Virus record (IMG/VR): IMGVR_UViG_3300042310_000554
Reading direction: 5' to 3' (one strand)
DNA length: 20,000 nucleotides
Source of the DNA: an uncultured virus (IMG/VR IMGVR_UViG_3300042310_000554)
Taxonomy: Duplodnaviria > Heunggongvirae > Uroviricota > Caudoviricetes
A model generated the notes under the pieces. That model did not search any database. It worked only from the letters and a program-made list of their open reading frames with translations, and had not been told where the DNA came from. Position 1 is the stretch's first letter; every line of letters begins with the position of its first letter. A program made the translations under genes and the position numbers. Shown here piece by piece: positions 776 to 17,298 of the stretch.

Positions 776-2827
776 ATGATAGAATCTATGGATGGTAACG
801 AAGGAAGAGGTAAGAACACAAGTGTTTCCGAATCAGCAACACCAGTGTTAGACAATTTTAGTCGAGATTTAATAAAATTGGCTGAAGAAGGGAAATTAGA
901 CCCTGTTATTGGTAGAGAAAGTGAAATAACGAGAATTGCCCAAATTCTTTCTCGTAGAAAGAAAAATAACCCAATTATTATTGGAGAACCTGGTTGTGGT
1001 AAAACCGCAATCGTTGAGGGTCTTGCAATTAAAATCTATAATGGGGATTGTCCAAGAAACTTAATGGACAAAAGAATTGTATCGTTAGATATGACATCAA
1101 TCGTTGCCGGAACAAAGTATCGTGGTCAATTTGAAGAACGAATGAAAGTAATTATAGAAGAATTACAAAACGCACCAAACATCATCGTATTCATTGATGA
1201 GATTCATACCATCGTTGGAGCCGGAAATTCATCAGGGTCAATGGATGCATCAAACATCTTTAAACCAGCTCTTGCTCGTGGGGAAATCCAATGTGTTGGA
1301 GCAACAACATTAGATGAATATAGAAAAAACTTTGAAAAAGATGGAGCGTTAGAAAGACGTTTTCAAAAAGTTGTTGTTGATTCACCAAGCAAAGAAGAGA
1401 CATTACTTATCTTGGAAAACTCAAAAGATAAATACGAATCTTACCATAAGGTAACCTATTCCAACGAGATTTTAAATCTATGTGTTGATTTAGCGGAAAG
1501 ATATATCACCGATAGAGAATTTCCGGATAAAGCGTTTGACATCTTGGATGAGGTTGGCGCAAGAAGTCAGGTAGAGATTAAAACTCCGGACTCAATAGAA
1601 AAGTTGAAACTCCAAGCGTTTGATATTAAACAACAAAAAATGGATGTTGTTAAACGACAAGATTATGAGGAAGCCGCAAATCTTCGTGATAAAGAAAAAA
1701 GAGTCTTAAATAAACTTGAATCTGAAAAGAAAAAGTTTGAAGAGGAACTTCTTACAAATAAAAAAGAAATCACCATTGATTTGGTTTATGAGGTTGTATC
1801 CAATATTACCAAAATTCCAATTACCAAATTAAACTCTGATGAGACTAAATTATTATCCGAAATGGAAGTTAATTTATCGGATAAAGTTATTGGACAATCC
1901 GATGCAGTTTCAAAAATTGCTAAGTCAATTAGAAGAAGTAGAATTGGGATTAAAGACCCAAACAAACCAATTGGTTCATTTATCTTTTTAGGGTCAACCG
2001 GTGTTGGTAAAACATATCTGGCAAAACAACTCGCCAAACAAATGTTCGGTAGTGAGGATAATATGATTCGTGTGGATATGTCAGAATACCAAGAAAAACA
2101 TACCATATCAAGATTAATCGGAGCACCTAGCGGATATGTTGGTTATGAAGATGGTGGACAACTAACCGAACAGGTTAAAAATAAACCATATTCTGTTATT
2201 CTATTTGATGAGGTTGAGAAAGCTCATAAAGATATTTTCTCCACACTTCTTCAAGTATTGGATGAAGGACACCTAACCGATAGTTTAGGTAAGAAAATCA
2301 ATTTCAAAAATTGTGTGATTATTATGACCTCAAATGTTGGAGCAAAAAAATTACAAGATTTTGGTTCAGGTGTTGGTTTTAAAACTGGGTCAAGTACCTA
2401 TGTTGAGGAAGAATATCGTAGAGATGTTTTGAAAAAGGAATTAAAGAAATTCTTTACTCCGGAATTTTTAAATCGTGTAGACGAGATTGTAATCTTTAAT
2501 TCTTTAGTGAAAGAAGATGTTAAAAAAATCGTGAAATTAGAATTGGACATCTTAACTAATAGATTAATTGGAATGAAATACGACATCACTTTTGATGGTA
2601 GTGTTTTAGATTTAATATCTGATGTTGGATTTGATGAGACTTACGGAGCAAGACCAATTAAACGAGCTATCCAAGACAAACTTGAGGATTTTGTATCAGA
2701 GGAGATTATAAAAGGAAATGTGGTTGAAAACACCCCATACACGATTATCTCTGTGGATAAAGAAATTAAATTTCAAGAGGTTGTAGAAGTTGTGAAAAAG
2801 ACAAGAAAGAAAAAGGGGGATGTATAA
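776..2827 (+). CDS. clpC: ClpC-like AAA+ unfoldase lacking the N-terminal Clp-repeat domain
   Basis: Two AAA modules (GEPGCGKT/IVFIDEIH; GSTGVGKT/ILFDEVEK), GTKYRGQFEER pore loop, short UVR-type middle domain (QDYEEAANLRD), VGF ClpP-docking loop. Confidence 0.92.
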   Translation: MIESMDGNEGRGKNTSVSESATPVLDNFSRDLIKLAEEGKLDPVIGRESEITRIAQILSRRKKNNPIIIGEPGCGKTAIVEGLAIKIYNGDCPRNLMDKRIVSLDMTSIVAGTKYRGQFEERMKVIIEELQNAPNIIVFIDEIHTIVGAGNSSGSMDASNIFKPALARGEIQCVGATTLDEYRKNFEKDGALERRFQKVVVDSPSKEETLLILENSKDKYESYHKVTYSNEILNLCVDLAERYITDREFPDKAFDILDEVGARSQVEIKTPDSIEKLKLQAFDIKQQKMDVVKRQDYEEAANLRDKEKRVLNKLESEKKKFEEELLTNKKEITIDLVYEVVSNITKIPITKLNSDETKLLSEMEVNLSDKVIGQSDAVSKIAKSIRRSRIGIKDPNKPIGSFIFLGSTGVGKTYLAKQLAKQMFGSEDNMIRVDMSEYQEKHTISRLIGAPSGYVGYEDGGQLTEQVKNKPYSVILFDEVEKAHKDIFSTLLQVLDEGHLTDSLGKKINFKNCVIIMTSNVGAKKLQDFGSGVGFKTGSSTYVEEEYRRDVLKKELKKFFTPEFLNRVDEIVIFNSLVKEDVKKIVKLELDILTNRLIGMKYDITFDGSVLDLISDVGFDETYGARPIKRAIQDKLEDFVSEEIIKGNVVENTPYTIISVDKEIKFQEVVEVVKKTRKKKGDV

Positions 2828-2844
2828 TCCCCCCTTTAAATACC

Positions 2845-2879
2845 AAAAAAATAACCCCACCTTTCGGAGGGGTTTTTTA
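2845..2879. terminator. Bidirectional intrinsic terminator between the convergent clpC and peptidase genes
   Basis: A-tract, AACCCC-aCC-TTTC-GGa-GGGGTT, T-tract; a second hairpin AAAGGGGGA/TCCCCCCTTT spans the clpC stop (2812-2837). Confidence 0.75.
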
Positions 2880-2880
2880 T

Positions 2881-3702
2881 TTAAAACTTATAAAAATATT
2901 TTGAATCTGTTTTATAAAGATATTTTTTATACCCCAAATCCTGAATCATCTTTTTACCGGTCTCTATTCCACTATAAACATCCTCAACAACCACATATTC
3001 ATTTTTAGTGTGATAGTCGTAATAACCTATCGCAAAATTGATACAGGAGAAGTCAAAAATGTTTTTTAAAGCATAAACATCGGTATAAGGATGTGATTGG
3101 TAATCGTGTCTACCCTGAAACCCCTCGTTTAAAGCAACATCACAAATTTTAAAGAACTCCCCATCTCTATCAAATAGTTGAGTTCCCATACAAAATTCAC
3201 TAACCATAACATTTCCTGGAGCATCAAACTGAATCCCATAACCAACATTCATAAAGAAGTCAGGACTTGCTTTTTTGGACCCGTGACATCCGGTTTCTTC
3301 TGATACGAAGAATGCCGCCTTTAGATTTGGTAATTCTTTTAATAATTCCAAACAAGCATAAACACCACATTTATCATCACCACCAATTCCGGTTGGATTT
3401 CCAAAATCGTTAAACGCCTTTAATGATGGTTTTAATTCATTCTGCTCATTTACGGAAAATATCTCACGAACATTAATCGTGTCTATGTTATGAACCGTAT
3501 CTGTATGAGCAATAACACAGGGAAAATAATCTATAAATTCGTCTGTTTGTTTTGTTGCGTAGATATTATTATGTTCATCCACATTGAAGGGAATCCCATT
3601 TTCCTCTAACCAATTGATTAGAAATTCTACCATAAGGTCTTCTTGATATGTTTTTGTCGGAACCGACAATACATCTTTTAATAATTGATAATTTCTTTCC
3701 AT
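2881..3702 (-). CDS. M20/M28-family zinc metallopeptidase
   Basis: Motifs AHTDTV, GGDDKCG, SEETGCHGS, FD and YHT characteristic of Zn exopeptidases. Confidence 0.85.
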   Translation of the reverse strand: MERNYQLLKDVLSVPTKTYQEDLMVEFLINWLEENGIPFNVDEHNNIYATKQTDEFIDYFPCVIAHTDTVHNIDTINVREIFSVNEQNELKPSLKAFNDFGNPTGIGGDDKCGVYACLELLKELPNLKAAFFVSEETGCHGSKKASPDFFMNVGYGIQFDAPGNVMVSEFCMGTQLFDRDGEFFKICDVALNEGFQGRHDYQSHPYTDVYALKNIFDFSCINFAIGYYDYHTKNEYVVVEDVYSGIETGKKMIQDLGYKKYLYKTDSKYFYKF

Positions 3703-3743
3703 AGCACAAATATAGGGAAAATAATTAACATAAAAACATTATT

Positions 3744-5105
3744 TTAATTTATTCTAACAAAACCCTCAAATAATTCGGGTGAAACTAAAAAGTTATTAAA
3801 TTCTTCTTCGGTATAACTTCTACGAGCAACACCAGTTTTAGTGAAAACATCCATGTGTATTCTATTTGTTTCGGGGTCAATTTCTCTAATAAAAAATTCT
3901 CTACCATACGAAGTCTTACTTCTAGTGTTAGTCGGGTATTTAGAGACAACTCTATCGTAGATATTTGAATATTCTAAAATATCAACATACTTATCGGATT
4001 CTTCTAATTCCTCAAGTATTTCATCTAATTCTTCCCCTATAACAATATTAAGTCGTTCTTCATCAAAATCATCACATTGTATTTCATATCTATATTCATC
4101 CCATCCACCAGTGTTAAATGTGTGTCCGATATCTGTTAAAACACCCTTAATGTCTTTAGTGGGGTCTTGACTAATCTTAAACATTGATAATAAAAGACCG
4201 ACAGTGGTATAATAAGTTCTAAAACAATCTATATTTATTAACCCATAATTTTGAAAAATTTCACAAATTTCATCCTTAATTTGTTTTTTAGCATCATCGT
4301 GACGACACCCATTTTCAAGGTCTACATACTCTTCTAAGATATTTTCAATTTTACCCTCAAACATTTCCATCAATTTTTGAGCCGCCACTTCTTTCTTATC
4401 ATCATCATCTAACAAAATTAAATCAGGTGAAATATATTTTAAAATTTGTTTTAATTTACCCTTATTTTCATCTGAAAACCACCCGAAAAAATACCCCCCA
4501 TGCCAATCATCGGCGGCTATATTATAATCAACATAATCATATGTGTCGCCGTAATATGAAAATAATCTATCCACATAATAAACATCTTCTTCTTCAACCT
4601 GAAATAATTTAACATAATCCGAAATTTCATCAAAACGTAATTTGATTGTACTTTTACCTGGATTTTTTTCATTGTAATTAAATTTATAAACTAAATCGTC
4701 AGCACCTTCCATTTCATTAGATGACACCGGTTCACCATTCTTAACCTTAACCAATAATTCATAAATTGGACTATAACCAATTATGGGTTCAAGTTCCGAT
4801 TTAACTTCATCAGGTAACTCATAAAATAATTCTTTCCTATCAATAAGTCTATATCTCATAGCCTCACTACCCAAATAAAGTATTTCATTATCGGGACCTT
4901 TATGAATAACATATATTTGGATAGGTTCTTTATCTTTATCAATAATAAAGTAAGTATTTCCATCCCGAAATTCATCCCATTTAGATTTTATCGAAGGAGG
5001 AGCGTAATATATAAAAGAATCGTAATCCATTGGTTCAACAATTAACCAATCGTCATTGTCAAATATTGTTTTAAATTCCCCGTGAGAGTCGTTTTTATCG
5101 GGCAT
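3744..5105 (-). CDS. Hypothetical acidic phage protein (453 aa)
   Basis: Long ORF, no recognised motif, TATTTAT upstream (5123-5129). Confidence 0.75.
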   Translation of the reverse strand: MPDKNDSHGEFKTIFDNDDWLIVEPMDYDSFIYYAPPSIKSKWDEFRDGNTYFIIDKDKEPIQIYVIHKGPDNEILYLGSEAMRYRLIDRKELFYELPDEVKSELEPIIGYSPIYELLVKVKNGEPVSSNEMEGADDLVYKFNYNEKNPGKSTIKLRFDEISDYVKLFQVEEEDVYYVDRLFSYYGDTYDYVDYNIAADDWHGGYFFGWFSDENKGKLKQILKYISPDLILLDDDDKKEVAAQKLMEMFEGKIENILEEYVDLENGCRHDDAKKQIKDEICEIFQNYGLINIDCFRTYYTTVGLLLSMFKISQDPTKDIKGVLTDIGHTFNTGGWDEYRYEIQCDDFDEERLNIVIGEELDEILEELEESDKYVDILEYSNIYDRVVSKYPTNTRSKTSYGREFFIREIDPETNRIHMDVFTKTGVARRSYTEEEFNNFLVSPELFEGFVRIN

Positions 5106-5137
5106 AGATATTTATTTTAATAATAAATATATTTTTA

Positions 5138-5168
5138 TTTGGAATTATCTAAAAATGTATTATCTTTG
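5138..5168 (+). promoter_or_regulatory. Bacteroidetes-type promoter for tmRNA
   Basis: TTTG (5138-5141), 19 nt spacer, TATCTTTG (5161-5168), 14 nt upstream of the mature 5' end. Confidence 0.75.
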
Positions 5169-5182
5169 TAGAGTTAAAATAT

Positions 5183-5598
5183 GGGAGTGACACGGAATTG
5201 ACTATTCGTAATAGTTATTCGGGGCACGTAGTGAGATGTTCTCTATCACTTAAATCTATGGGTACAACAATTTAGACGGAAACGTTTTAAACAAAATGGC
5301 TCTATTAGGTCTTGTACGTCAAGATGAGCTTGTGAACGTAGCGTAAGCAAACACACATTGGGGTCGACAGACAGATGTACCTAGCAACAGAACTGTCTTA
5401 AGGTGTAATACCACCAGAAGATGTATTAGGAGTCTCGTTCAGGGGTCTACTCCAACACAAGTGAACCCGACACAGTTATTGGTGACGATGTCAAAATAGG
5501 AACCAAATATTTGTCAGTTGAGAATTAACTGAATAAACGTGTAGTCCTTAATAGGTAATACAAGTAACACCGGGGTTCGAGTCCCCGCACTTCCACCA
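5183..5598 (+). ncRNA. ssrA: tmRNA (one-piece, 416 nt); tag frame 5278-5346 encodes (A)GNVLNKMALLGLVRQDELVNVA
   Basis: 5' GGGAGTGA...GGAATTGAC; acceptor stem GGGAGTG/CACTTCC with G3.U70; T-arm CGGGG-TTCGAGT-CCCCG; encoded ACCA end; TAGAC before the GGA resume codon; smpB nearby. Confidence 0.95.
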
Positions 5599-5602
5599 AA
5601 AG

Positions 5603-5630
5603 AAAAACCCATCATACGATGGGTTTTTTT
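5603..5630. terminator. Bidirectional intrinsic terminator downstream of tmRNA
   Basis: AAAAACCCATC-ATAC-GATGGGTTTTTTT. Confidence 0.85.
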
Positions 5631-5654
5631 GTTATCAGTTCAAATGTTTATTTT

Positions 5655-6020
5655 TTAATCTTTTAATACTTGTTTATCCCCAACCGGAGATGTAAATTTA
5701 TTTGTTAATTTATCTAATCTTGAATCAAAATTTCTATATACGTCTCCAAACATTTTATCAACGTCATCCATTCTTTTGTTGGTGTATGTATTTGCTTCAG
5801 TATATAATCTATCAACCCTATCAATCTCACCATCAATACGACGATTGAGAGAATCACCACCACTATTAATATCATTGAAGATATGTCCTTGAACTTGTTC
5901 TAATTGTTTGCATTTATTTTTTAATCTGTTAATCTGATTGCACATTATAACCATAACCACAACTCCCAGTACCCCGAGAACCAAACCTATACCCATAATG
6001 AACGATGTTAAATCTACCAT
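5655..6020 (-). CDS. Hypothetical membrane-anchored coiled-coil protein
   Basis: N-terminal hydrophobic helix (FIMGIGLVLGVLGVVVMVIM) followed by heptad-like repeats. Confidence 0.75.
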   Translation of the reverse strand: MVDLTSFIMGIGLVLGVLGVVVMVIMCNQINRLKNKCKQLEQVQGHIFNDINSGGDSLNRRIDGEIDRVDRLYTEANTYTNKRMDDVDKMFGDVYRNFDSRLDKLTNKFTSPVGDKQVLKD

Positions 6021-6069
6021 AATTTCTTTTTTTTATTTGTTTATTATTGAACTGATGATTAAGTATAAT

Positions 6070-6098
6070 AAAAAAAGGGACTATTTCAAGTCCCTTTT
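6070..6098 (-). terminator. Intrinsic terminator overlapping the smpB stop
   Basis: AAAAGGGACT/AGTCCCTTTT inverted repeat followed by a T-tract on the minus strand. Confidence 0.7.
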
Positions 6099-6518
6099 CA
6101 TATCTCTCTCTATGTCCCGAGATTTGATGGTATCTCGTTTATCGTGTATCTTCTTCCCTTTGGCAAGAGCAATTTCCATCTTAATCAATCCGGTGTCGTT
6201 TATGAAGACGCGATAAGGAACGATTGTGGTACCATTGATTAACTCATTCTCCAACTTAATAAGTTCTTTTCGTTTGGCTAATAGTTTTCTATCCTTTACG
6301 GTCTCGTGGAACGACCCAAACCCATAATCGGAGATGTTCATCCCCTTTATAAATAACTCCCCGTCATTAAAATAACAATACCCTTCAGAGATGGATACCT
6401 TCCCCTGACGAATGGACTTTACCTCTGAACCAACTAGTTTGATTCCCACAATTAGTGTCTGTAGGAATGAATACTCAAACTTGGCTTTCTTATTGACTAT
6501 GTTAATTGATTTTTTCAT
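6081..6518 (-). CDS. smpB: SsrA-binding protein SmpB
   Basis: NKKAKFEY, GIKLVGSEVKSIR, RKLL and the C-terminal tail LAKGKKIHDKR. Confidence 0.96.
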   Translation of the reverse strand: MKKSINIVNKKAKFEYSFLQTLIVGIKLVGSEVKSIRQGKVSISEGYCYFNDGELFIKGMNISDYGFGSFHETVKDRKLLAKRKELIKLENELINGTTIVPYRVFINDTGLIKMEIALAKGKKIHDKRDTIKSRDIERDMKRDLK

Positions 6519-6522
6519 AGGA

Positions 6523-6553
6523 CAAAGATAATATAAAAATTGATATAAACAAA
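6523..6553 (-). promoter_or_regulatory. Bacteroidetes-type promoter for smpB (probably leaderless mRNA)
   Basis: TTTG (6553-6550), 19 nt spacer, TATCTTTG (6530-6523), 4 nt before ATG. Confidence 0.75.
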
Positions 6554-6583
6554 AAAAGGTGACACAAATTAATGTATCACCTT
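6551..6583 (-). terminator. Intrinsic terminator closing the large ncRNA
   Basis: AAGGTGATACA-TTAATT-TGTGTCACCTT plus T-tract on the minus strand (the U.G wobble forms only in this orientation). Confidence 0.8.
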
Positions 6584-6584
6584 C

Positions 6585-7473
6585 TTGGCTTAATACGATG
6601 AGAATACTCGTCTTATTGAGAATCTTCGGAAGGATTATTGTTTCCCTTCGTTTCCACCATCTTTTGAATGGTAATCCTCATTGCCGATTGGTTAGACCAA
6701 TCACTCCTTGAGATATCATCTACTCTCTCATTATTCAACTCTCTTTAACCTTGCGAGCTAACTCAGGATTCGACTCCTTAGAGGTTTTTGGCGAGAATAC
6801 ATTCAGACTTGCGGTCATCCTGTGCAACGAACGGCTCGTTACTATGTAGGCAACTTGTCGACGATACCTGGTAAACATTTTTGCTATTGTCTATTTAGTT
6901 TTTCACCATATGAAAATAGTTAATGTGTTGTGGATGTATTCAGGAAGTAGTTTACCGTAAGCTCCCTAACCTTTTGGGTTAAAGAATACTAAACTTCCCG
7001 ATGAGATATCCCTATCTCCAAATTTCAAGAATTCTTCAAATCAATATCTTGGTAGATATTTGATAGGGATAAAGTCAGCACCACCTGTTACTTAATCTTG
7101 CCTTTCGGCGTTAAGATTCCTTTAATTTTGGAACTCGCAATCATAAGGTTGGATAACCTTACTTCTCACATAATCCCTATGAATTATTTTTATTGGTGTT
7201 CCCACCTCAAACAGACAACCCACATTGCCTATTCAGTTTTCCATTTCCCTACGAAGTCATCCTCGGTACTACAGGCTCACTGATATTTCACTTGCTTACT
7301 CGAGTTCGGTTTCCCAAACCCCAAAATTAGTAACACAACTAATTTCGGTTTAATCCTCATTTCTGAGTTTATTTAAAGATGATAAGCCACCTATTATCTT
7401 TGATACAACACCGAAGTGTTATAATGGATAATCTAAAATTTCTAAGAACGTCTTTAAGGTTTCCCTTAATTGT
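6585..7473 (-). ncRNA. Large (~890 nt) structured non-coding RNA, GOLLD-like candidate
   Basis: No credible ORF; dedicated promoter and terminator; at least 12 hairpins, several with GNRA or cUUCGg loops and G.U pairs on the minus strand; adjacent to tRNA-like genes. Family assignment is not verified. Confidence 0.8.
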
Positions 7474-7477
7474 TTTA

Positions 7478-7508
7478 CAAAGGTAAGTGATTTTTTTCTA
7501 AAGTCAAA
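7478..7508 (-). promoter_or_regulatory. Bacteroidetes-type promoter driving the large ncRNA
   Basis: TTTG (7508-7505), 19 nt spacer, TACCTTTG (7485-7478). Confidence 0.78.
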
Positions 7509-7543
7509 CACTTTTGTAATTTTTTTTAATTTATTTTCTATCT

Positions 7544-7615
7544 TTATTCGGAATCATTTATTTTAATTCCAAAAAATATAAAGACTACAGCTACAACTAT
7601 AAAACATACTATCAT
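7544..7615 (-). CDS. Possible 23-aa membrane micropeptide MIVCFIVVAVVFIFFGIKINDSE
   Basis: ATG after an A-rich leader, a single hydrophobic stretch, TAA stop; too short for the ORF track. Confidence 0.4.
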   Translation of the reverse strand: MIVCFIVVAVVFIFFGIKINDSE

Positions 7616-7633
7616 AATTTTTTTTTAAAAAAT

Positions 7634-7729
7634 AAAATGTGTTGTGTAAGCTCTACCACTGCAGCTAAACCTTGGTCACCAGGATTACGGTTGTTGGAAT
7701 CGAACCAACGACTCTACACGACACATTTT
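7634..7729 (-). ncRNA. Circularly permuted tRNA mimic (YrlA/Y-RNA-like) #2
   Basis: Terminal stem AAAATGTGTCGTGTA/TACACAACACATTTT; then GAGTC, T-arm GTTGG-TTCGATT-CCAAC, closed acceptor-like stem AACC...GGTT, TA, D-arm GCT-GCAGTGGTAG-AGC. Confidence 0.75.
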
Positions 7730-7731
7730 TG

Positions 7732-7822
7732 TGGTATCAGATGGGCTCGAACCACCGGCACAGAGACTTTCGGGACTCCTGCTCTACCAAGGGAAATAAA
7801 TCTCCCACTGAGCTATAATACC
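7732..7822 (-). tRNA. Atypical tRNA or tRNA-like RNA (Phe-like body, aberrant anticodon loop, D-loop hairpin insertion)
   Basis: Acceptor GGTATTA/TGATACC+A; D-stem GCTC/GAGC with a 16-nt insert GGGAGATTTATTTCCC; anticodon arm GGAGT-CCCGAAAG-TCTCT; T-arm GGTGG-TTCGAGC-CCATC; no encoded CCA. Confidence 0.65.
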
Positions 7823-7830
7823 ATATAAAA

Positions 7831-7914
7831 TAATGCGGGTGTATGCTCTACCATCTGAGCTACGGATTTGAAACCGGAGGGATTTGAAACCTCGACACAA
7901 CACCCACACCATTA
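7831..7914 (-). ncRNA. Circularly permuted tRNA mimic (YrlA/Y-RNA-like) #1
   Basis: Terminal stem GTGTGGGTGT/ACACCCGCAT; T-arm GAGG-TTTCAAATC-CCTC; closed acceptor-like hairpin CGG-TTTCAAAT-CCG; TA; canonical D-arm GCTC-AGATGGTA-GAGC. Confidence 0.72.
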
Positions 7915-7938
7915 CTTCAACGAACTTATTTTCTTCTA

Positions 7939-7970
7939 CAAAGATAATACATTTATTTTAATCTGTCAAA
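7939..7970 (-). promoter_or_regulatory. Bacteroidetes-type promoter for the tRNA-mimic cluster
   Basis: TTTG (7970-7967), 20 nt spacer, TATCTTTG (7946-7939). Confidence 0.75.
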
Positions 7971-7987
7971 TATTTTTTGAAATTTTT

Positions 7988-8197: not shown

Positions 8198-8218
8198 TTT
8201 TTTTTATTTTTTAATTTG

Positions 8219-8311
8219 TAGTCAGGAGAGGAATCGAACCTCTCTACAGGGAGCTACCCGTCATCCATGACCTTCCATCGGACTCGAACCGACCTTGTAT
8301 CCAACCTGACT
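8219..8311 (-). ncRNA. tRNA-like RNA with two T-loops and no D or anticodon arm
   Basis: Acceptor AGTCAGG/CCTGACT+A; T-arm AGAGG-TTCGATT-CCTCT; interior closed by TACA/TGTA holding TCGG-TTCGAGT-CCGA, GTCA-TGGA-TGAC and GGG-TAGCT-CCC. Confidence 0.65.
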
Positions 8312-8458
8312 ATTTTTCGCTAATGTTAAAAACTGAATCAATCTCCCTAAAAAACACTAACTTGGTACTTACTATATCGGCTCCCCCATCCTAGTTATAT
8401 ATTCACCTGAAACTTCGATGGGTTGTTGATTGACCACACCCACCTACTCAAATAGTTT

Positions 8459-8713
8459 TTACACACTCATCATCCAACCCATCCGGTTTTGAGATTGATA
8501 CTCACTATAAGTACATTTTCTCATTGAGGAATAGTCGGGTCTCAACTTAACATGAGTCGGATATTTCTTCTCGTGTTCTTTGCTCTCTCTCACCACCTTA
8601 GCGTAAGCTTCTCTCTTACTTGGAGCCCACACATCATTAAATCCACCACCTATCCAATTAAACAAATAAAGGTATTCGCCGTTAACACTTCTATACAATT
8701 TCTCTTTAGCCAT
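8459..8713 (-). CDS. Hypothetical protein (84 aa, start MAKEKLY)
   Basis: The upstream start at 8758 lies inside the promoter at 8737-8767, so ATG 8713 is preferred. Confidence 0.7.
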   Translation of the reverse strand: MAKEKLYRSVNGEYLYLFNWIGGGFNDVWAPSKREAYAKVVRESKEHEKKYPTHVKLRPDYSSMRKCTYSEYQSQNRMGWMMSV

Positions 8714-9067: not shown

Positions 9068-9071
9068 TCAG

Positions 9072-10266: not shown

Positions 10267-10286
10267 ATTTTTTTAATTTTTTAATA

Positions 10287-10490: not shown

Positions 10491-10502
10491 TTGTATTAAT
10501 TT

Positions 10503-12668
10503 TTAAATTGGGAATATAACTACTCCATTGTTTATTTCATAAATTAATGTTCCTGGTGAGACAACACTACCATTAGAATCTAACCTATTTGTTATTGTAA
10601 AATTATTTGTTGGGTCAGTTACATCGGTTACATTGTAAAATATATAATATGTGTATGATTCCCACTGAAAATTATTGGAAGTAGAGAGCCAACCACTCAT
10701 AGATGATTGACATACATTAGGTTTAGGTGTAATTCTTGAAGACGAACTTGAATTGTGTGATGGGAAAAAAGTGGTACTATAATACCGTCCTCCGATTGAG
10801 TAATAAGGGTTAATCCCATTACCTCTTCTAACATACGTTTTAAATGTATAATTCGCCTCGGAAATTTCGTTATTTATATTATTAATAACTTGATTTATTG
10901 AATCATACATACCATTACACGTTGTCCCACTATTATAACCATTAAGCCCCGTAGAAAGAACAACCGTTATTATTTTATTTAAATCATCAAATATAAATGG
11001 ACTTGATATGTGAGTTGAATAGTCATACGCAACACCTAATGTATCACCACAAGTTGTTCCTGAAAGAACACCTATAGTAAGATATTTGTAATAATTAATA
11101 TTTGATGGGTTATTTATATAATTTGACAGTGTGGAACCCGTAGCTACGTTATATTGAGTTTTGTAAACATTATAATCAGTTATATTGTCAAAAGTTAATG
11201 TTATTGTCGAACCTACTTTAGTTATCGTTGTTCCAGAAATTTGGTTTGTACATAGACTGTTCACAAATGTCCCACCCTGACTTGCACTAACTTTTAAATC
11301 ACAACTTCCATTGGCCATTGATTGTGTCCCAATGCTTTCAATTTTGGACCCATGATATTTAAAAAAGTTGTTATTAGTAGTTGTTGCGGTATAAATTGGT
11401 GAATTTCTTTTTAAACCCGAAATTGTTAACCTACAATTAGATATGTCATATGTTGAGGTAATATTAGAAACATCATATCCACCTGTCACAAAATTACCAT
11501 TAAAAATTGAACCACAATCTAGTGACGCAGTATCTGTTAAACACTTACCTGAAAACCCCCAATTTGTATTGGTATTTGTTGGGTTTGGTTCCATATTTAT
11601 TAATAAATAATCCCCATTAGTATAAGTAAAACCGGTTAATGAAGTAACTAGTTTTAAAGTATCCGGACCTAAAGTTGTGCTTAATCCATATGAATAAACT
11701 TTTGGGTTCGATGTTAAACTATTAGTTCCCGCATCATAACCTACTTTCCAATTTTCGATTTGTGAATTAATATTGTTAGTCGGACTAATATAACTAATAC
11801 TTATTGTATCATAAACATTAAACCCTTTAAATGCCCATGCGAAATTTTTAGTAATAGGACTTAAATCCCAACTAATACTTCTTTGAGCTTGAGTTGAATT
11901 TTGAGTGGTATTAACATACGATATTGTCACAGGATATGTATTTCCTGATACACCTGAAGAACAAGTATAACTTTCAACACATATTGTATTACTAATTGTT
12001 GTTAAATTTAAATTTAAATCAGGACTATATTTAACAATTCCATCGACTAAATTAATATCTGAAGTGTATTGGATACCGTCTAAATACACAAATCTAATAA
12101 CAGGATACCATGTACCTCCTTGAGCTGGCTCACTATAAAATGGTTGTACTACTGTAACATCAGGTGATGCGCTAATAGCCGAACCTGACGTAAACGATGG
12201 TGAACCAATAACTTCATTTAAATACCAATCAACAACATAAGTACCAATTGTACATCCTGAACTAGATAATAATGAACCAGCACTTAAAGCCCCAAGTTGA
12301 CAACCAATTTGAGATTCTTCAATGTATAATCCACAATCTTCACCTTTATTTACGACAATACTATAATTAACATCACAAATAGATGGGATAAGTGGTTCTG
12401 TTGGAGTTACAGTTGGAGTTACAGTTGGAGTTTGGGTATTAGTAGGAGTTACTGTTGGTGTGATGTTTAGCGGTGGATAATTTAAAACACAAATCTTCTC
12501 AAATTCGGTTATATCTATAATATATTGACCATAATAATATTCCGTATAATATATATAAGGTAACATTACCGAACCTAAATCTATTGTACCACCAGTTGAG
12601 GGGTAATAGGTTATATTTCCGGAATACCCACTATAATTATCTGTTGATATTGTAAATTTATATGACAT
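10503..12668 (-). CDS. Large S/T/N/C-rich modular protein with a Pro-Thr linker (putative virion surface or fibre protein)
   Basis: 721 aa; N-module, TPTVTPTNTQTPTVTPTVTPT linker, beta-rich body. Confidence 0.7.
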   Translation of the reverse strand: MSYKFTISTDNYSGYSGNITYYPSTGGTIDLGSVMLPYIYYTEYYYGQYIIDITEFEKICVLNYPPLNITPTVTPTNTQTPTVTPTVTPTEPLIPSICDVNYSIVVNKGEDCGLYIEESQIGCQLGALSAGSLLSSSGCTIGTYVVDWYLNEVIGSPSFTSGSAISASPDVTVVQPFYSEPAQGGTWYPVIRFVYLDGIQYTSDINLVDGIVKYSPDLNLNLTTISNTICVESYTCSSGVSGNTYPVTISYVNTTQNSTQAQRSISWDLSPITKNFAWAFKGFNVYDTISISYISPTNNINSQIENWKVGYDAGTNSLTSNPKVYSYGLSTTLGPDTLKLVTSLTGFTYTNGDYLLINMEPNPTNTNTNWGFSGKCLTDTASLDCGSIFNGNFVTGGYDVSNITSTYDISNCRLTISGLKRNSPIYTATTTNNNFFKYHGSKIESIGTQSMANGSCDLKVSASQGGTFVNSLCTNQISGTTITKVGSTITLTFDNITDYNVYKTQYNVATGSTLSNYINNPSNINYYKYLTIGVLSGTTCGDTLGVAYDYSTHISSPFIFDDLNKIITVVLSTGLNGYNSGTTCNGMYDSINQVINNINNEISEANYTFKTYVRRGNGINPYYSIGGRYYSTTFFPSHNSSSSSRITPKPNVCQSSMSGWLSTSNNFQWESYTYYIFYNVTDVTDPTNNFTITNRLDSNGSVVSPGTLIYEINNGVVIFPI

Positions 12669-12680
12669 ATTTTTTTAATA

Positions 12681-13286
12681 TTATTGTTGTAGATGGTTCA
12701 TTAATACACCACCCAATGAGGCTGAATACATTTTTAAATGTTGAATATCCTCTTCATCCAATTTAGTTTTTCTTTTCGTATAATCTAAACCTAATGTTCC
12801 TATGAATTTTCCATCAATAGATTTAATGGGGAATAAATAACCTGATTTACATCCTGTGTCTTCAGCAACATATTTTAATCCAAAAGTGGGGATTGTTTCA
12901 TCTTTAAAATCCGAAATTTCAATAGATTCATTCTCTAATAAATAGTTGATAGATTTTGAAAATAAATTAACGGGGATATTTTGAAAGTTTGATTGGATAG
13001 ATAGGGCTCCTGTTTTTACAGTTTCGTAAATTATACTAAACTTAGCCATTGATTTACCTGTTGGGTAGAAATTTCCACCATTATGAAATTGGGTTATCCA
13101 AACTCTATCAGGTTTTAATTCGTCCTTGATACGGTCTAATTTAGACATTACAAGCTCACTAACTTTTAAAGTTTCTAAAACCATATCAGGTTTTTGATTC
13201 TTTTTATCTAATTTATTTTTAATAAATAATAATATGACTGGTCCTAAAACTCCCGTGATAAATGCTACTATTACTGATGTACTCAT
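12681..13286 (-). CDS. N-terminal TM helix plus GAF-like domain protein (possible T4 T-type holin)
   Basis: Hydrophobic residues 5-22; DRVWITQFHNG...SGYLFPIKSIDGKFIGTLGLDY resembles the GAF core. Confidence 0.55.
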   Translation of the reverse strand: MSTSVIVAFITGVLGPVILLFIKNKLDKKNQKPDMVLETLKVSELVMSKLDRIKDELKPDRVWITQFHNGGNFYPTGKSMAKFSIIYETVKTGALSIQSNFQNIPVNLFSKSINYLLENESIEISDFKDETIPTFGLKYVAEDTGCKSGYLFPIKSIDGKFIGTLGLDYTKRKTKLDEEDIQHLKMYSASLGGVLMNHLQQ

Positions 13287-13322
13287 AATTTGTTAATATA
13301 TCAAGATAAATAGTTTAAAAAT

Positions 13323-13352
13323 AAAAAAAGTGAAGAAATTTTCCTCACTTTT
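13323..13352 (-). terminator. Intrinsic terminator after the RNA ligase operon
   Basis: AAAAGTGA...TCACTTTT inverted repeat with a T-tract on the minus strand. Confidence 0.6.
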
Positions 13353-13362
13353 ATCTTTTTTC

Positions 13363-14388
13363 TTACAACTTTTTAAATTCCGGTTTGATTAGATTCCATA
13401 TAATTTCAGAATAATCTTTTTTATCAAACATCCTAAATAAAATACCTGACAAATGTTTATTTTGTTGTGACACCCACTCAGCAAATTCTTTTCTATCTTC
13501 TATGGGTTCTTTGTCGTTATATTTACCATACATTTTACCATCAAACTTTTTACCAGCATCTTCAGATATTTGGAAATAAGAATACCTTAATTCTTTTACA
13601 TAATTTTTAATTTTGGTGTAAAATTCATCCGGAACATCTTTTAATAATTCCATTACATCCTCATCATTTTTTAAATACTCCCAAATACCGGTTGTAGATA
13701 CATTAGTCATAATTTTGTGAAGACGCAAATATTCAACACCTTTAACTTTGACTCTGTCCCCATTTGAGAACTTCACCACAAACCCTTCTTGGTCGTTTTT
13801 AACCATTTCTTTTAATTGTTGGTAGTCCTTGATACCATCGTATTTTTTAACCACATCAAAACCCCACTCATCCCAATCTGACATGTCATAATCTTTACCC
13901 CAATTATCGAATGCTCCCAATAGGACCAGTTTCTCTTCACCTTTATAATCCAAAACAATTCTGTTTTCCGGATAGATAATCTCAAAACAAAATGTCATAT
14001 GTCTGAACATTATGTCTGTATTGTATTTCTTTAAGAGTTCTCTTGCTTTGATTGCTTGGTCTGATGTAAATGAACCACGAGTCGCCACCACCCATTGACC
14101 CTGATACCAAAATACAATACCTAATGAACCGTCCATTTTTTCATAAACCTCAAAAGTTTCGGTAGGAGTATATTTTCCTTCCTCAATATTAAAGAATTTT
14201 TTAAATGGTGTCGCAACAATGTCTCCTTTGTCATCAGTAACTAAACCTCTACACATAAGAGTCACCTCATCCCATAGGTTCTCGTACTGAACTTTTTCAG
14301 AGTAGTTCCATATGGTTAATGGAAGTGTTGGATGCACTTGTTTGTAAAGTAATCCGTCTTCGTAATATTTGTTTAGTTTTTCTAACAT
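13363..14388 (-). CDS. rnl1: T4 Rnl1-like RNA ligase
   Basis: CRGLV, PFKKFFN, motif I EKMDGS, TRGSF, FEII, EGFVV, VKVK. Confidence 0.9.
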   Translation of the reverse strand: MLEKLNKYYEDGLLYKQVHPTLPLTIWNYSEKVQYENLWDEVTLMCRGLVTDDKGDIVATPFKKFFNIEEGKYTPTETFEVYEKMDGSLGIVFWYQGQWVVATRGSFTSDQAIKARELLKKYNTDIMFRHMTFCFEIIYPENRIVLDYKGEEKLVLLGAFDNWGKDYDMSDWDEWGFDVVKKYDGIKDYQQLKEMVKNDQEGFVVKFSNGDRVKVKGVEYLRLHKIMTNVSTTGIWEYLKNDEDVMELLKDVPDEFYTKIKNYVKELRYSYFQISEDAGKKFDGKMYGKYNDKEPIEDRKEFAEWVSQQNKHLSGILFRMFDKKDYSEIIWNLIKPEFKKL

Positions 14389-14392
14389 AATT

Positions 14393-14530
14393 TTATTTTT
14401 TCTTTTTCTTTTTTTTAATAGGTCTTTCAGGTCTTTCTAAATATCTTGGGGGTAAAGGAATTTGTCTTCCCCCTCTGAATACACACCCATTTCCCATCAT
14501 GAGGAAGGACCAAATAAACCACCCTATCAT
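14393..14530 (-). CDS. 45-aa hypothetical protein MIGWFIWSFLMMGNGCVFRGGRQIPLPPRYLERPERPIKKKKKKK
   Basis: ATGA overlap with the kinase stop; fills the gap exactly to 4 nt before the ligase ATG. Confidence 0.55.
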   Translation of the reverse strand: MIGWFIWSFLMMGNGCVFRGGRQIPLPPRYLERPERPIKKKKKKK

Positions 14531-14910
14531 AATTTTATCTCAAATCTATCTTTCATCTGTACTAATTTATCCTCCGGAACTCCGTGTTCATTTACACCAC
14601 CGTGTCTATTTTCCACAATGATGGAGAACACTTTATATCCGTATTTTGATGCTAAGTCATAATATGGTAGCATTTCCCACTCTTGTGTGAATGTGTTAGA
14701 TACTACCACTCTTTTACTTTTATTTTCCATAAAAACTCTCACAGCGTTTTGACACCAAGCGTGAGCATCTTTTAATTTAGAACCATCAAATTCGTACTTA
14801 CCTTCGTAGGTAAAGTATTTATCTGCTTCCATATGCGACCCCCCTAATGATTCCGCCAATGTTGTTTTACCTGAGCCGGGACAACCACGAACTAAAAATA
14901 ACTCTTTCAT
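14527..14910 (-). CDS. P-loop kinase (AAA_33, polynucleotide-kinase-like)
   Basis: RGCPGSGKTT Walker A, EADKYF, VVSNT, HGVP. Confidence 0.82.
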   Translation of the reverse strand: MKELFLVRGCPGSGKTTLAESLGGSHMEADKYFTYEGKYEFDGSKLKDAHAWCQNAVRVFMENKSKRVVVSNTFTQEWEMLPYYDLASKYGYKVFSIIVENRHGGVNEHGVPEDKLVQMKDRFEIKL

Positions 14911-14911
14911 A

Positions 14912-15193
14912 TTAATTTTTTAAATATTTTACAATCTTTTCAATTCCTTCGGTATCATCCGAATTAATAATAAACTCATCAAACGCTCCGTATCTACATT
15001 GATAACCAAAAATATATTTCAAACCATAACTAACTCTTTCCCAAAAAGGTCGTTTAGTTAAATGAGTATGGATATAAACCATTGGATATTTTACACCATC
15101 AATTTCATCTTCATCATATAAGACAACCATTTGATGTTCCGTATTATGACAGGAACAAATGAATAAATCTTTTTGTGTTTGCTTAATTTCCAT
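14912..15193 (-). CDS. Hypothetical protein (CxC...H motif)
   Basis: Tightly packed ORF in the operon. Confidence 0.7.
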   Translation of the reverse strand: MEIKQTQKDLFICSCHNTEHQMVVLYDEDEIDGVKYPMVYIHTHLTKRPFWERVSYGLKYIFGYQCRYGAFDEFIINSDDTEGIEKIVKYLKN

Positions 15194-15686
15194 GTTTTTT
15201 CAGTCGTTTTTTTATCTTTTTTAATACTATTTTATCATTCGCAGCATCTTTTAGTGAATTATATTTAGAGTAGGATTCTTTAGTTAGTTTTAATAACTCA
15301 ATACTTTCTTCATCCGATAAATCAAATAAAATATGACCACAAATTACTTTTGTTATAAATCTATAAGTCGTAACTGTTGTCCAAAATTTCTTTAATCCAA
15401 AATATTTTGTCTTATAAATCTCATCCGCAGAACTATAATCCCACTGCGTATAAACTCTAATATCGGGTTCACCATCTTCAAATTTTAAAGTAAACTCCAT
15501 TATATCGGGACTTATGTGTTCTGATTTGTCATAATTCTCTTTAACTTTAAACCGCTTTGTAACGTATGGTGATGGACTATAACCACCACAATATATGTGA
15601 TTAGCAAAATAACAATTGTGAAAAATATTTTCACCACCAACATTCTTTAATTCTTTGTGAATTAATTCTAAAATTTTTTCTTTCAT
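15183..15686 (-). CDS. Hypothetical protein
   Basis: Tightly packed ORF in the operon. Confidence 0.7.
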   Translation of the reverse strand: MKEKILELIHKELKNVGGENIFHNCYFANHIYCGGYSPSPYVTKRFKVKENYDKSEHISPDIMEFTLKFEDGEPDIRVYTQWDYSSADEIYKTKYFGLKKFWTTVTTYRFITKVICGHILFDLSDEESIELLKLTKESYSKYNSLKDAANDKIVLKKIKKRLKKHGN

Positions 15687-15687
15687 C

Positions 15688-16350
15688 TTATTTTCTTTTT
15701 CGACCTTCGTCTGTTATCATTTCATCTGTGTGATGGTCATTATCCATATTTGATTTAATTTCTCTCAATTTTACAATCTTAATAACATTATCTAATGAGT
15801 ATGGTGCAAAAAACAATGAACCATCAATACCAACATCCATTCTACGACCCTTACCAAAGATTTTACCCGTTGGGAGATGTACATGTCCATGGAGGTGAAT
15901 ATGACCCTTATTTAACCCATCCCAAGAATCTATAGGATAGTGCATTAAAACCAAAGTGTCAAATTTATACATCAATTTTGTGTAATGATTAACACTCGCA
16001 AACAATTCCTGACAATCACCCCGATTGGTCTCAATGTGGTGGTCATGATTACCTAATATAAGGTGAATCTCTTGACACACAATTCTGTCTCTAAAAATTT
16101 TAATATTTTCAAAACCACCAAAACTCCAATCACCAAGATGAATCAAAACATCGTCTTGACCAACAACACTATTTATACCATTTACAATGGCATCATTCAT
16201 TTGACCAATTGAATCAAAATCTCTTGTTTGGTGAATTGGAACACTTCCATCCGGAAGCCTCCATTCTGTTACGCCACGACATATATTCTTATGTCCAAAG
16301 TGTGTATCGGATATAATCCAAACTTTTCTATCGTTATCTATCTTAATCAT
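15688..16350 (-). CDS. Calcineurin-like metallophosphoesterase
   Basis: SDTHFGH, HLGDWS, GNHD, MHYP, HGHVH motifs. Confidence 0.9.
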   Translation of the reverse strand: MIKIDNDRKVWIISDTHFGHKNICRGVTEWRLPDGSVPIHQTRDFDSIGQMNDAIVNGINSVVGQDDVLIHLGDWSFGGFENIKIFRDRIVCQEIHLILGNHDHHIETNRGDCQELFASVNHYTKLMYKFDTLVLMHYPIDSWDGLNKGHIHLHGHVHLPTGKIFGKGRRMDVGIDGSLFFAPYSLDNVIKIVKLREIKSNMDNDHHTDEMITDEGRKRK

Positions 16351-16840
16351 ACTGCAAATCTAATTCTTTTTTTCCAAACCAAAAAGGTTTTTCTCTGTTT
16401 TTCCAAGATGCTAAATTAATTTTAGCCCCCATATAATAATTTCTATAAGATTCCACAACAGAATCCGTTTTAAACTCATCCGGCATTGCCATTGCTGGTT
16501 GAGTAAAACCAATATCCGGGATGTTAGGTCTATTTAAAATACACCATAAAACTACTTCAATTGATTTATGTCGTTTACCATACCTGTGGGTATATTCTTT
16601 ACCCAATTCCAAACCCAATTCACACAAGTACAAATAATTTGATAAACTCTGACGAGCCCACACCGCACATGGGTGATTTTTATGAGATAATTTGTACGGT
16701 ACTTGGTCGTTAACTTGGTCGGTTACGTGATGAACCGAACATAATAACTGAGCCGTTTCCAAAATCATTTTTATAACATGTTTATCAACATGATATTGAG
16801 CCGATAGTTTAGGATTCTCATCCAAGAAAAATATATTCAT
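16343..16840 (-). CDS. denV: Pyrimidine-dimer DNA glycosylase / endonuclease V-like protein
   Basis: MNIFFLD...DKHVIKMILETAQLL, HKNHPCAVW, EYTHRYGKRH, AMPD, YRNYY; start at 16840 by TGATG coupling. Confidence 0.75.
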   Translation of the reverse strand: MNIFFLDENPKLSAQYHVDKHVIKMILETAQLLCSVHHVTDQVNDQVPYKLSHKNHPCAVWARQSLSNYLYLCELGLELGKEYTHRYGKRHKSIEVVLWCILNRPNIPDIGFTQPAMAMPDEFKTDSVVESYRNYYMGAKINLASWKNREKPFWFGKKELDLQYD

Positions 16841-17298
16841 CACACATGTGGTATTTTGACTCTCACACAAGTTTGTGCTTGACCCTCGTTCATATAAAAA
16901 TTATTCAAATAACCCATAATGTTTGCACTTCCAATTGGATTGGCCGAATGAACATATACGGTTGGAAAAACAAACTTATCTGATTTTCTCTCACTTCTTG
17001 TCATATTAAAACGACCCTCGTTTGTATTGTGAAATAATGCTACCAAGAATTTGGATGCGTCATATCCGGTTTTCTCATTAATATTGTTATAATCCAAAGT
17101 ATAATTTGGTGAAACATTATTAAAGTATTCTTTTATTGCTGTGTCACCCAAATCGTGGTCCAAGGAGATTACATCAATATTTTCTAAACCAATTTTGTTA
17201 ACTTCATTAACAAATTCATCGTAATCTCTTACAACAATCCAATCATCTCCGGTTGGAGTTCTTATATCATCGAGATAAATTCTATAGAGTGTTTTCAT
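16840..17298 (-). CDS. Cyclic-phosphate-processing receiver-domain protein
   Basis: IYLDDIRTP, WIVVR, ISLDHDLG, TGYD, HSANPIG motifs. Confidence 0.8.
   Translation of the reverse strand: MKTLYRIYLDDIRTPTGDDWIVVRDYDEFVNEVNKIGLENIDVISLDHDLGDTAIKEYFNNVSPNYTLDYNNINEKTGYDASKFLVALFHNTNEGRFNMTRSERKSDKFVFPTVYVHSANPIGSANIMGYLNNFYMNEGQAQTCVRVKIPHV

What the first reader, a model, noticed from the sequence alone, without database searches (positions are those of the whole stretch)
776..17298. Co-located translation-protection toolkit: ribosome rescue, proteolysis, tRNA mimics, giant ncRNA and RNA repair
Seen within about 17 kb: clpC, an exopeptidase, tmRNA, smpB, a giant ncRNA, four non-canonical tRNA-like RNAs, and Rnl1, kinase, phosphoesterase and cyclic-phosphate receiver genes, all behind host-type promoters or -7 elements. 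Known: T4 Pnk/Rnl1 repairs anticodon-nuclease damage, and tmRNA/SmpB have been reported in huge phages. Inference: an integrated early counter-defence system against ribotoxins or collateral RNA cleavage, in which decoy RNAs absorb nucleases, the ligase set repairs broken RNA, and tmRNA-SmpB-ClpC clears stalled ribosomes and their products.
Basis: inference. Interest (0 to 1): 0.78.

Follow-up and report, generated by a model that had tools for sequence, protein, structure and literature searches.

The report
Jumbo-phage RNA island, swappable tRNA shells
A giant lake phage carries real genes for rescuing ribosomes and repairing RNA, but they move around its relatives' genomes separately rather than as one defence kit; the odd part is a family of tRNA-shaped RNAs with fixed ends and interchangeable middles whose job is unknown.

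Summary
All listed parts are real: N-domain-less ClpC, M20-like peptidase, tmRNA, SmpB, a ~870-nt GOLLD RNA, four tRNA-like RNAs and an Rnl1 operon, in a ~310-kb Bacteroidota phage of the bS21-phage group. The one-system reading is weak. The five core parts lie within 11-18 kb in 4 of 8 near-complete relatives and span 97-120 kb in 3; the block's synteny never exceeds genome background; ClpP, CCA enzyme and tRNAs sit elsewhere; the promoter class is genome-wide. tmRNA and SmpB do co-occur (15 of 15 genomes both or neither). None of the tRNA-like RNAs keeps an anticodon arm, which fits anticodon-nuclease decoys poorly. The notable item: 8218-8311 belongs to a family of anticodon-less tRNA shells (constant acceptor and T arm, mostly a tRNA-Leu D arm, 188 unrelated interiors, 1-6 per genome, several phage groups), exchanged behind a conserved 150-nt structured leader absent from Rfam. 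T5 RNA1/RNA2 are the precedent. The scan noted the tmRNA-ClpC block, the YrlA-like RNA and the shells before on other DNA; my look-ups found no note on the leader.

The parts
123..365 (-).
   Evidence: PF13619 E 2.4e-15; 8 of 8 genomes, 38 of 38 non-redundant ClpC loci
776..2827 (+). ClpC-like Hsp100 ATPase without N domain; both Walker A/B pairs and a VGF ClpP-docking-type tripeptide
2881..3702 (-). M20/M42-like zinc peptidase
   Evidence: below curated cut-offs
3744..5105 (-). 453-aa protein of unknown function, positionally fixed between peptidase and tmRNA, fast-evolving (24-95% identity)
   Evidence: no family; atlas hits all under 0.9
5183..5598 (+). tmRNA with G3-U70, encoded CCA and a 22-codon tag (5278-5346) ending V-N-V-A, conserved across relatives
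   Evidence: RF00023 71.2 bits; tags
6081..6518 (-). SmpB with intact C-terminal tail, own promoter and terminator
6595..7466 (-). GOLLD RNA, about 870 nt (Rfam 3' half 6595-7001; 5' end inferred from the promoter at 7478-7485)
   Evidence: 5' half conserved next to the 3' half in relatives; contigs of three RNA runs cross position 7001
7624..7731 (-). second permuted YrlA-like tRNA mimic (T arm, closed acceptor, D arm)
   Evidence: RF02553 26.9 bits, cut-off 69; fold z -3.6
7732..7822 (-). pseudo-tRNA resembling tRNA-Phe, with a hairpin inserted in the D loop and a degenerate, variable anticodon loop; abuts both YrlA-like RNAs
   Evidence: RF00005 36.7 bits; alignments; host tRNA-Phe
7823..7919 (-). 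first permuted YrlA-like tRNA mimic; no GNCGAA Ro60 motif
   Evidence: RF02553 38.4 bits; fold z -3.1
8218..8311 (-). anticodon-less tRNA shell of the AGUCAGG family; this copy is atypical (a second T-loop hairpin in place of the Leu-type D arm)
8312..8463 (-). conserved ~150-nt structured leader abutting the shell; four helices, possible loop-loop pairing; no Rfam match
8459..8710 (-). 83-aa conserved viral protein of unknown function heading the leader/shell transcript
13363..14388 (-). Rnl1-family RNA ligase (motifs I, IV, V visible in the sequence)
   Evidence: PF09511 E 1.8e-20, phrog_562; TIGR02308 below cut-off
14527..14910 (-). stand-alone P-loop kinase, weakly T4 Pnk-like
   Evidence: AAA_33, phrog_2071, phrog_505; T4 Pnk E 0.016
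15688..16350 (-). calcineurin-like phosphoesterase
16343..16870 (-). DenV-like pyrimidine-dimer glycosylase family protein inside the ligase operon (DNA, not RNA, related)
16840..17298 (-). cREC cyclic-phosphate receiver, first gene of the ligase operon
   Evidence: PF20274 E 5.9e-18; -7 element at 17316-17323, terminator 13326-13352

Best explanation
This is the early, host-polymerase-transcribed RNA-gene island of a ~310-kb T4-like Bacteroidota lake phage (bS21-phage group), not one operon or one machine. It is a meeting place of separately inherited modules in at least eight transcription units: (1) a fixed KTSC-clpC-peptidase-unknown-tmRNA backbone, (2) a floating smpB that is always kept with tmRNA but not beside it, (3) GOLLD, (4) exchangeable tRNA-shaped RNAs, (5) an Rnl1/kinase/phosphoesterase/cREC end-healing operon. 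Each sustains translation in the infected cell by its known route (shown: identity and intact motifs; inferred: function): trans-translation with a phage-specific tag read by a headless ClpC with phage or host ClpP, and healing and sealing of cut tRNAs. The tRNA-shaped RNAs keep only acceptor helix and elbow. They are most likely cut out by RNase P and a 3' nuclease and given CCA, which also sets the ends of their structured neighbours (the pseudo-tRNA between the two YrlA-like RNAs; the shell behind the leader). Typical shells keep the bacterial LeuRS identity set and may be leucylated; if they are decoys, their target reads acceptor end and elbow, not an anticodon. Their fixed ends serve as crossover points, so strains swap, gain and lose interiors as cassettes.
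For: Separate promoters and terminators on both strands. Smallest arc holding clpC, tmRNA, smpB, GOLLD and Rnl1: 11, 12, 13, 18 kb in four genomes, 97, 100, 120 kb in three, 27 kb in the one lacking GOLLD. Block synteny at or below the genome median in 7 of 7. ClpP in 6 of 8 genomes, 32-112 kb from clpC; CCA enzyme, two HAD_SAK RNA-repair phosphatases, Hsp70, DnaJ, PhoH and the tRNA cluster lie outside the block in G004. Promoter motif 26-50 per genome against 3-6 in shuffles. tmRNA and SmpB: both in 9, neither in 6, of 15 near-complete genomes. Shells: canonical anticodon arm in 4 of 137 against 4.0 by chance; U8 175, A14+A15 146, D-loop GG 167, A73 176, whole LeuRS set 120 of 182 (identity rules from PMC9976931); D-stem kept complementary in 26 of 49 variant shells against 6.5 by permutation; 15 shell types behind the same leader in 31 parsed loci; 0-3 different shells at one orthologous site.
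Against: High retention of tmRNA, SmpB, ClpC, Rnl1 and cREC (8 of 8) shows selection on each and does not exclude cooperation in trans; 5 of those 8 genomes were found with SmpB, 2 with ClpC, 1 with Rnl1, so retention is inflated. The clpC-peptidase-tmRNA-GOLLD order is kept far out in the clade (tmRNA by blastn in 32 of 38 ClpC loci chosen for holding GOLLD). Processing alone does not explain why the acceptor sequence is constant across unrelated phage groups. The window's own shell lacks the Leu D arm and A15-U48. No tRNA among 30 of one Flavobacterium bin has this acceptor. No expression evidence for the small RNAs (contigs only).
Confidence: 0.6

Rival explanations
1. One reading: one integrated early counter-defence system in which decoy RNAs absorb nucleases, the ligase set repairs RNA and tmRNA-SmpB-ClpC clears the debris, co-located because it is selected as a unit.
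For: Tight clustering in 4 of 8 near-complete genomes; shared promoter class; core parts in 8 of 8; Rnl/Pnk/cREC counter-defence role argued in PMC7824862; phage tRNAs counter tRNA-cleaving defences (PMC11555353 abstract).
Against: Scattered in 3 of 8; synteny not above background; kinase missing in 1 and phosphoesterase in 2 of 8, YrlA-like RNA found by blastn in 4 of 8 and in 0 of 20 distant loci; shells in phages without tmRNA/SmpB; no anticodon arms to bait anticodon nucleases; unrelated genes interleaved.
Confidence: 0.15
2. Takeover rather than defence: phage tmRNA with a private tag, headless ClpC, bS21 and abundant GOLLD redirect host ribosomes and proteolysis to raise late protein yield.
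For: bS21 in 3 of 5 relatives and its late expression in this group (PMC9723584 passages); a 21-22-residue tag conserved in all relatives read; chaperones and ClpP elsewhere in the genome; GOLLD rises during lysis and was pulled down with ribosomes (PMC12286853 passages).
Against: Does not account for the RNA ligase operon or the tRNA mimics; promoters are host-type; tag readout untested.
Confidence: 0.15
3. The shells are cargo carriers or near-neutral cassettes: the tRNA frame stabilises a variable payload RNA, or merely persists through recombination between its fixed ends.
For: 188 interiors under 80% alike, 59-191 nt; interiors only mildly structured (mean z -0.66, n 123); single variants kept at 98-99% identity at different genome sites; nested arrays of 1, 2 and 3 shells in related strains.
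Against: No source or target found: 24 interiors hit the local loci, 22 only in other shells and the other 2 at places that look like shells too; compensatory changes show selection at RNA level in D and T stems; no shared partner protein near shells (495 ORFs in 433 clusters) or between phage groups.
Confidence: 0.1

Closest known systems
bS21-encoding freshwater Bacteroidetes phages (Chen et al. 2022, PMC9723584)
   Same: 293-331 kb, 31-34% GC, tRNA cluster, Clp genes, bS21 beside portal and prohead protease
   Different: The paper's main text has no mention of tmRNA, smpB or RNA ligase (0 occurrences); bS21 found in 3 of 5 relatives only; supplements not read
Phage tmRNA-SmpB in huge phages (Al-Shayeb et al. 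2020, PMC7162821)
   Same: Intact tmRNA plus SmpB
   Different: Long conserved tag, fixed position beside an N-domain-less ClpC, smpB free to move
T4 Pnk/Rnl1 and jumbo-phage RNA repair with cREC (Iyer et al. 2021, PMC7824862)
   Same: Rnl1, kinase, phosphoesterase and cREC in one operon, a linkage that paper describes
   Different: Kinase is stand-alone and only weakly Pnk-like; phosphatase is calcineurin-like; operon also holds a DenV-like gene
GOLLD RNA (RF02032; Kretsch et al. 2025, PMC12286853)
   Same: Full-score 3' half, about 870 nt, phage-borne, near tRNA-like genes
   Different: No tRNA found inside it; own promoter and terminator
YrlA Y RNAs (RF02553; Chen et al. 2014, PMC4201824)
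   Same: Permuted T-acceptor-D tRNA-like domain closed by a long stem
   Different: Below cut-off, no GNCGAA motif, no TROVE gene in 8 of 8 near-complete genomes
Phage T5 RNA1 and RNA2 ('tRNA-like stable RNA with unknown functions', NC_005859)
   Same: RNA1 has a Leu-type D arm, a long insert and a T arm; RNA2 has the same T arm as a common shell variant
   Different: Different acceptor stems, single fixed copies; no constant acceptor, multi-copy exchange or leader recorded
Allo-tRNAs and irregular tRNA polycistrons (Mukai et al. 2017, PMC5389517)
   Same: Irregular tRNAs with diverse anticodon regions, some not used in translation
   Different: Shells are 7/5 with A73, not 8/4 or 9/3 with G73/U73, and have no anticodon arm

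Membership tests
tmRNA-SmpB trans-translation | Rfam/Pfam scores above cut-off, G3-U70 acceptor, CCA end, open tag frame | tested here: met
tmRNA-SmpB trans-translation | Tagging activity and degradation of the tag | not testable with these tools
   needs bench assay
ClpC/ClpA unfoldase | Two AAA+ modules with Walker motifs and a ClpP-docking tripeptide | tested here: met
   (motif names recalled)
ClpC/ClpA unfoldase | N-terminal adaptor-binding domain | tested here: not met
   ClpA model matched from position 157; no Clp_N among the 25 best of 34 Pfam families shown
GOLLD RNA | RF02032 above gathering score; variable 5' half giving over 800 nt | tested here: met
   288.9 against 150
YrlA / bacterial Y RNA | Permuted tRNA-like domain (T, AS, D) closed by a terminal stem | tested here: met
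YrlA / bacterial Y RNA | GNCGAA Ro60-binding motif near the 5' end and a Ro60/TROVE gene within 4 kb | tested here: not met
   motif absent; TROVE 0 of 5 and 0 of 5 records; scores 38 and 27 against 69
T4-type Pnk/Rnl1 RNA repair | Rnl1 ligase with nucleotidyltransferase motifs | tested here: met
   motifs read from the translation
T4-type Pnk/Rnl1 RNA repair | Polynucleotide 5' kinase and 3' phosphatase | tested here: inconclusive
   Walker A and the Asp kept, the following Arg of T4 Pnk not (E 0.016; catalytic roles recalled); no fused HAD; substrate of the phosphoesterase unknown
Canonical tRNA (shells and pseudo-tRNA) | 5-bp anticodon stem with 7-nt loop, U33 and purine 37 | tested here: not met
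   4 of 137 against 4.0 expected; pseudo-tRNA loop degenerate
Bacterial LeuRS substrate (shells) | A73, U8-A14, A15-U48, G18G19, U54-A58, U55, C56 | tested here: inconclusive
   120 of 182 have all; T-loop positions were imposed by the search pattern; the window's copy fails; charging untested (PMC9976931)
Integrated co-selected gene cluster | Linkage conserved beyond background synteny | tested here: not met

The most novel reading that the evidence does not exclude
Freshwater Bacteroidota phages of several unrelated groups share an exchangeable repertoire of anticodon-less, probably leucylated tRNA shells, loaded like cassettes behind a conserved pseudoknotted leader RNA. The constant acceptor and elbow are read by one host factor (a tRNA-end-attacking defence effector or the LeuRS/EF-Tu pool), and the hypervariable interior is a diversified decoy or payload: a natural tRNA-scaffold system with CRISPR-array-like turnover.
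Probability: 0.2. Interest if true: 0.85.

Novelty: new variant of a known kind. Interest (0 to 1): 0.5.

Why it matters
It warns that clustering of translation genes in jumbo phages can be plain clade synteny. It also gives a large natural variant set (188 interiors in one fixed tRNA frame, plus a new structured leader) for a long-open question: what the 'tRNA-like stable RNAs of unknown function' of phages such as T5 do. The conserved and free positions say what to test first: processing, leucylation and acceptor-end effectors rather than anticodon nucleases.

Tried and rejected
No whole genome is held for the window, so relatives stood in. Ro60/TROVE partner: none. Leu/Phe transferase as a link from leucylated shells to ClpC: 0 of 8. 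YrlA model search: 5 of 8 at E 1e-4 but it also rang in 6 of 14 control genomes, so I rely on blastn (4 of 8). Sigma-70 scan and the bare -7 octamer were uninformative (134 against 111; 31 against 32). Sources or targets for shell interiors: none in local loci. Shell or leader homologues in cultured phage records: only short tRNA-arm matches or none. Shared partner protein: none. Atlas searches on the 453-aa and 83-aa proteins gave no function (a MecA cluster at 0.81 is below lead quality). Rnl1 had no PDB sequence hit at E 0.01. My first D-stem count was out of register and is replaced; one script crashed and was rerun. RNA runs are contigs only: X1 covers all 30 bins like DNA; lack of cover over the small RNAs and the ligase operon proves nothing and depth cannot rank genes. 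A T-box, ribozyme or riboswitch identity for the leader was considered from memory and has no Rfam support. No structure or complex prediction was run.
Full report
Source. No assembly is held for the window; the nearest record, G001 (113 kb), is collinear at 72-96% identity. SmpB, Rnl1 and ClpC queries brought 80 loci each from IMG/VR, among them eight records at least 90% complete (282-322 kb). G004, the closest, has T4-like portal, terminase, prohead protease and baseplate genes; bS21 is present in 3 of 5 tested. Size, GC and the bS21 position fit the freshwater Bacteroidetes phages of PMC9723584 (passages seen). The Bacteroidota -7/-33 promoter consensus is recalled, not taken from a call.

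Observation. All parts are confirmed. The giant RNA is GOLLD; its 5' half lies outside the Rfam model, stays next to the 3' half in relatives, and contigs from three RNA runs of different studies cross the boundary (6832-7213, 6841-7286, 6683-7318). The tmRNA has G3-U70, CCA and a 22-codon tag; relatives keep a 21-22-residue tag of the same type. ClpC starts at the first AAA+ module. The region holds at least eight transcription units on both strands. The two-part promoter motif occurs 6 times here against 0.2 in shuffles, but 26-50 times per genome against 3-6, so it marks a genome-wide class.

Is it one system? Retention: SmpB 8 of 8 near-complete genomes (17 of 37 records, many partial), tmRNA 8 of 8 (one just under cut-off; 28 of 37 over it), GOLLD 7 of 8, ClpC, Rnl1, cREC, KTSC 8 of 8, peptidase and kinase 7 of 8, phosphoesterase 6 of 8, first YrlA-like RNA and pseudo-tRNA 4 of 8. 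Five of the eight were found with SmpB, two with ClpC, one with Rnl1, which inflates these numbers; the three not found with SmpB still have it. In seven other near-complete phages picked by the shell or leader pattern, tmRNA and SmpB are both present in 1 and both absent in 6. So the rescue pair is a real unit in trans. Position: the smallest arc holding clpC, tmRNA, smpB, GOLLD and Rnl1 is 11-18 kb in G002, G003, G004, G006, 27 kb in G013 (no GOLLD) and 97-120 kb in G005, G017, G018. As a control I slid 17-kb windows over G004 (382 ORFs from a simple ATG caller): the share of orthologues that stay together in this block is 1.0, 1.0, 0.79, 0.67, 0.67, 0.50, 0.42, against genome medians of 0.89-1.0, never above and below in 5 of 7. 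Among 80 ClpC loci, 48 reach GOLLD and 38 are non-redundant: smpB lies in the locus in 9 of 9 close ones but 4 of 29 distant ones, whereas KTSC, peptidase and the 453-aa unknown are in 29 of 29; the YrlA-like RNA, pseudo-tRNA and leader are in 0 of 20 distant loci long enough to show them (blastn). Related functions are dispersed: ClpP in 6 of 8 genomes, 32-112 kb from clpC; CCA enzyme, two HAD_SAK phosphatases, a second cREC, Hsp70, DnaJ, PhoH, Acb1- and Tad6-like genes and the tRNA cluster elsewhere in G004 (286 of the 382 ORFs scanned, plus the block itself). Co-location is therefore sub-clade synteny around a stable clpC-peptidase-unknown-tmRNA-GOLLD backbone.

The tRNA-like RNAs. Two have the YrlA topology but lack the GNCGAA motif and a Ro60 gene that define the family in PMC4201824 (passages; TROVE 0 of 8 near-complete). 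Between them, abutting both, sits a tRNA-Phe-like RNA with a D-loop hairpin and a loop that varies among strains: a likely processing mark. The fourth, 8218-8311, belongs to a large family. In 6.77 Mb of partly redundant loci there are 231 unique elements (0 in 2.9 Mb shuffled), 188 clusters at under 80% interior similarity, 59-191 nt. I dropped 6 clusters with other ends, leaving 182. The 3' strand, the T loop and acceptor pairing were imposed by my search. Free positions are conserved too: U8 175, A14+A15 146, D-loop GG 167, U48 150 of 182; the whole E. coli LeuRS identity set of PMC9976931 (passages) is in 120. In sequences not fetched by that pattern, 36 of 53 5'-anchored hits have a T loop and 35 of those 36 the matching 3' strand. 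D stems compensate (26 of 49 variants against 6.5, maximum 14). A canonical anticodon arm occurs at chance rate (4 of 137 against 4.0), and interiors are mildly structured (mean z -0.66). All 8 near-complete genomes carry 1-6 shells (29 after dropping 3 canonical tRNAs from 32 matches), as do a distant 162-kb phage and an unrelated 113-kb phage in which ARAGORN finds no tRNA. The window's copy is atypical, with a second T-loop hairpin.

The leader. 8312-8463 has no Rfam match. A pattern found 52 copies; the junction was parsed in 44, and 38 of them run straight into a shell-type 5' strand; 31 fully parsed shells fall into 15 types. On 26 sequences, 24 pairs are 98.7% paired with 20 double-change cells against 6.4 in shuffles (relatedness can inflate this). 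A hexamer complementary to the first loop is kept in the last loop in 26 of 26, but the first loop was fixed by the pattern, so the pairing is not shown by covariation. A model finds it once in 9 of 40 records, 5 of the 8 clade genomes: shells do not need it. At one orthologous site strains carry 0-3 different shells, some in nested series, which fits exchange through the fixed ends.

Mechanism. Shown: identities, motifs, unit structure, distribution, and conservation of acceptor and elbow with loss of the anticodon arm. Inferred: RNase P and 3' processing, CCA addition (C74 follows 186 of 188 shells, as in 124 of 125 parsed phage tRNA genes), leucylation, recombination at the ends. [quoted passage not shown] Punctuation by tRNA-like elements (t-elements, mascRNA) is recalled; one search gave a listing only.

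Prior knowledge. tmRNA and SmpB in huge phages: PMC7162821 (passages). Rnl, kinase, phosphoesterase, cREC, KTSC and CCA enzymes in jumbo phages: PMC7824862 (passages and section 3.4.9). GOLLD: PMC12286853 (passages). Allo-tRNAs: PMC5389517 and PMC7609411 (passages). tmRNA database: PMC11915505 (passages). PMC11555353: abstract and outline. T5 RNA1 and RNA2 share the shell's plan; I owe that lead to scan note e1-6122668. Searches listed no paper whose title or abstract start describes the constant-acceptor family or the leader; the library lacks most subscription papers and older T5 work, and supplements of PMC9723584 and PMC7162821, which I did not read, may list these RNAs.

Verdict. Parts real and mostly known; integrated toolkit about 0.15; the shell-and-leader cassette system is a new variant of phage tRNA-like stable RNAs and is directly testable. 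Interest 0.5.

Noticed in passing
   Followed up: partly
window 3744-5105 (-): Fast-evolving 453-aa unknown always between peptidase and tmRNA; a candidate ClpC adaptor, untested.
   Followed up: partly
window 8312-8463 (-) first helix; L618-L647 tRNA-Lys genes: The leader's first helix resembles the acceptor helix of a tRNA-Lys seen in the Flavobacterium bin; may be chance.
   Followed up: no
window 10503-12668 (-) and 17370-19466 (+): Thr-Pro-repeat fibre-like and BspA-LRR proteins; the 721-aa gene is missing from the nearest record G001, so a variable insertion splits the supposed toolkit.
   Followed up: no
G004 29610-30173 and 317816-318520: Acb1-like and Tad6-like anti-defence genes lie far from this block.
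   Followed up: no
G006 213192-216162; L253, L292: clpC and peptidase genes interrupted by insertions (probable introns or homing elements) in some relatives.
   Followed up: no
G004 5326-7631: Thymidylate synthase split by an I-TevI-like endonuclease.
   Followed up: no
L011-L060 between GOLLD and smpB: The gap varies from about 70 to 4000 bases among close strains: an insertion hot spot.
   Followed up: no
G013 64240 and 65985: Two identical 121-nt shells 1.7 kb apart, a recent duplication.
   Followed up: no
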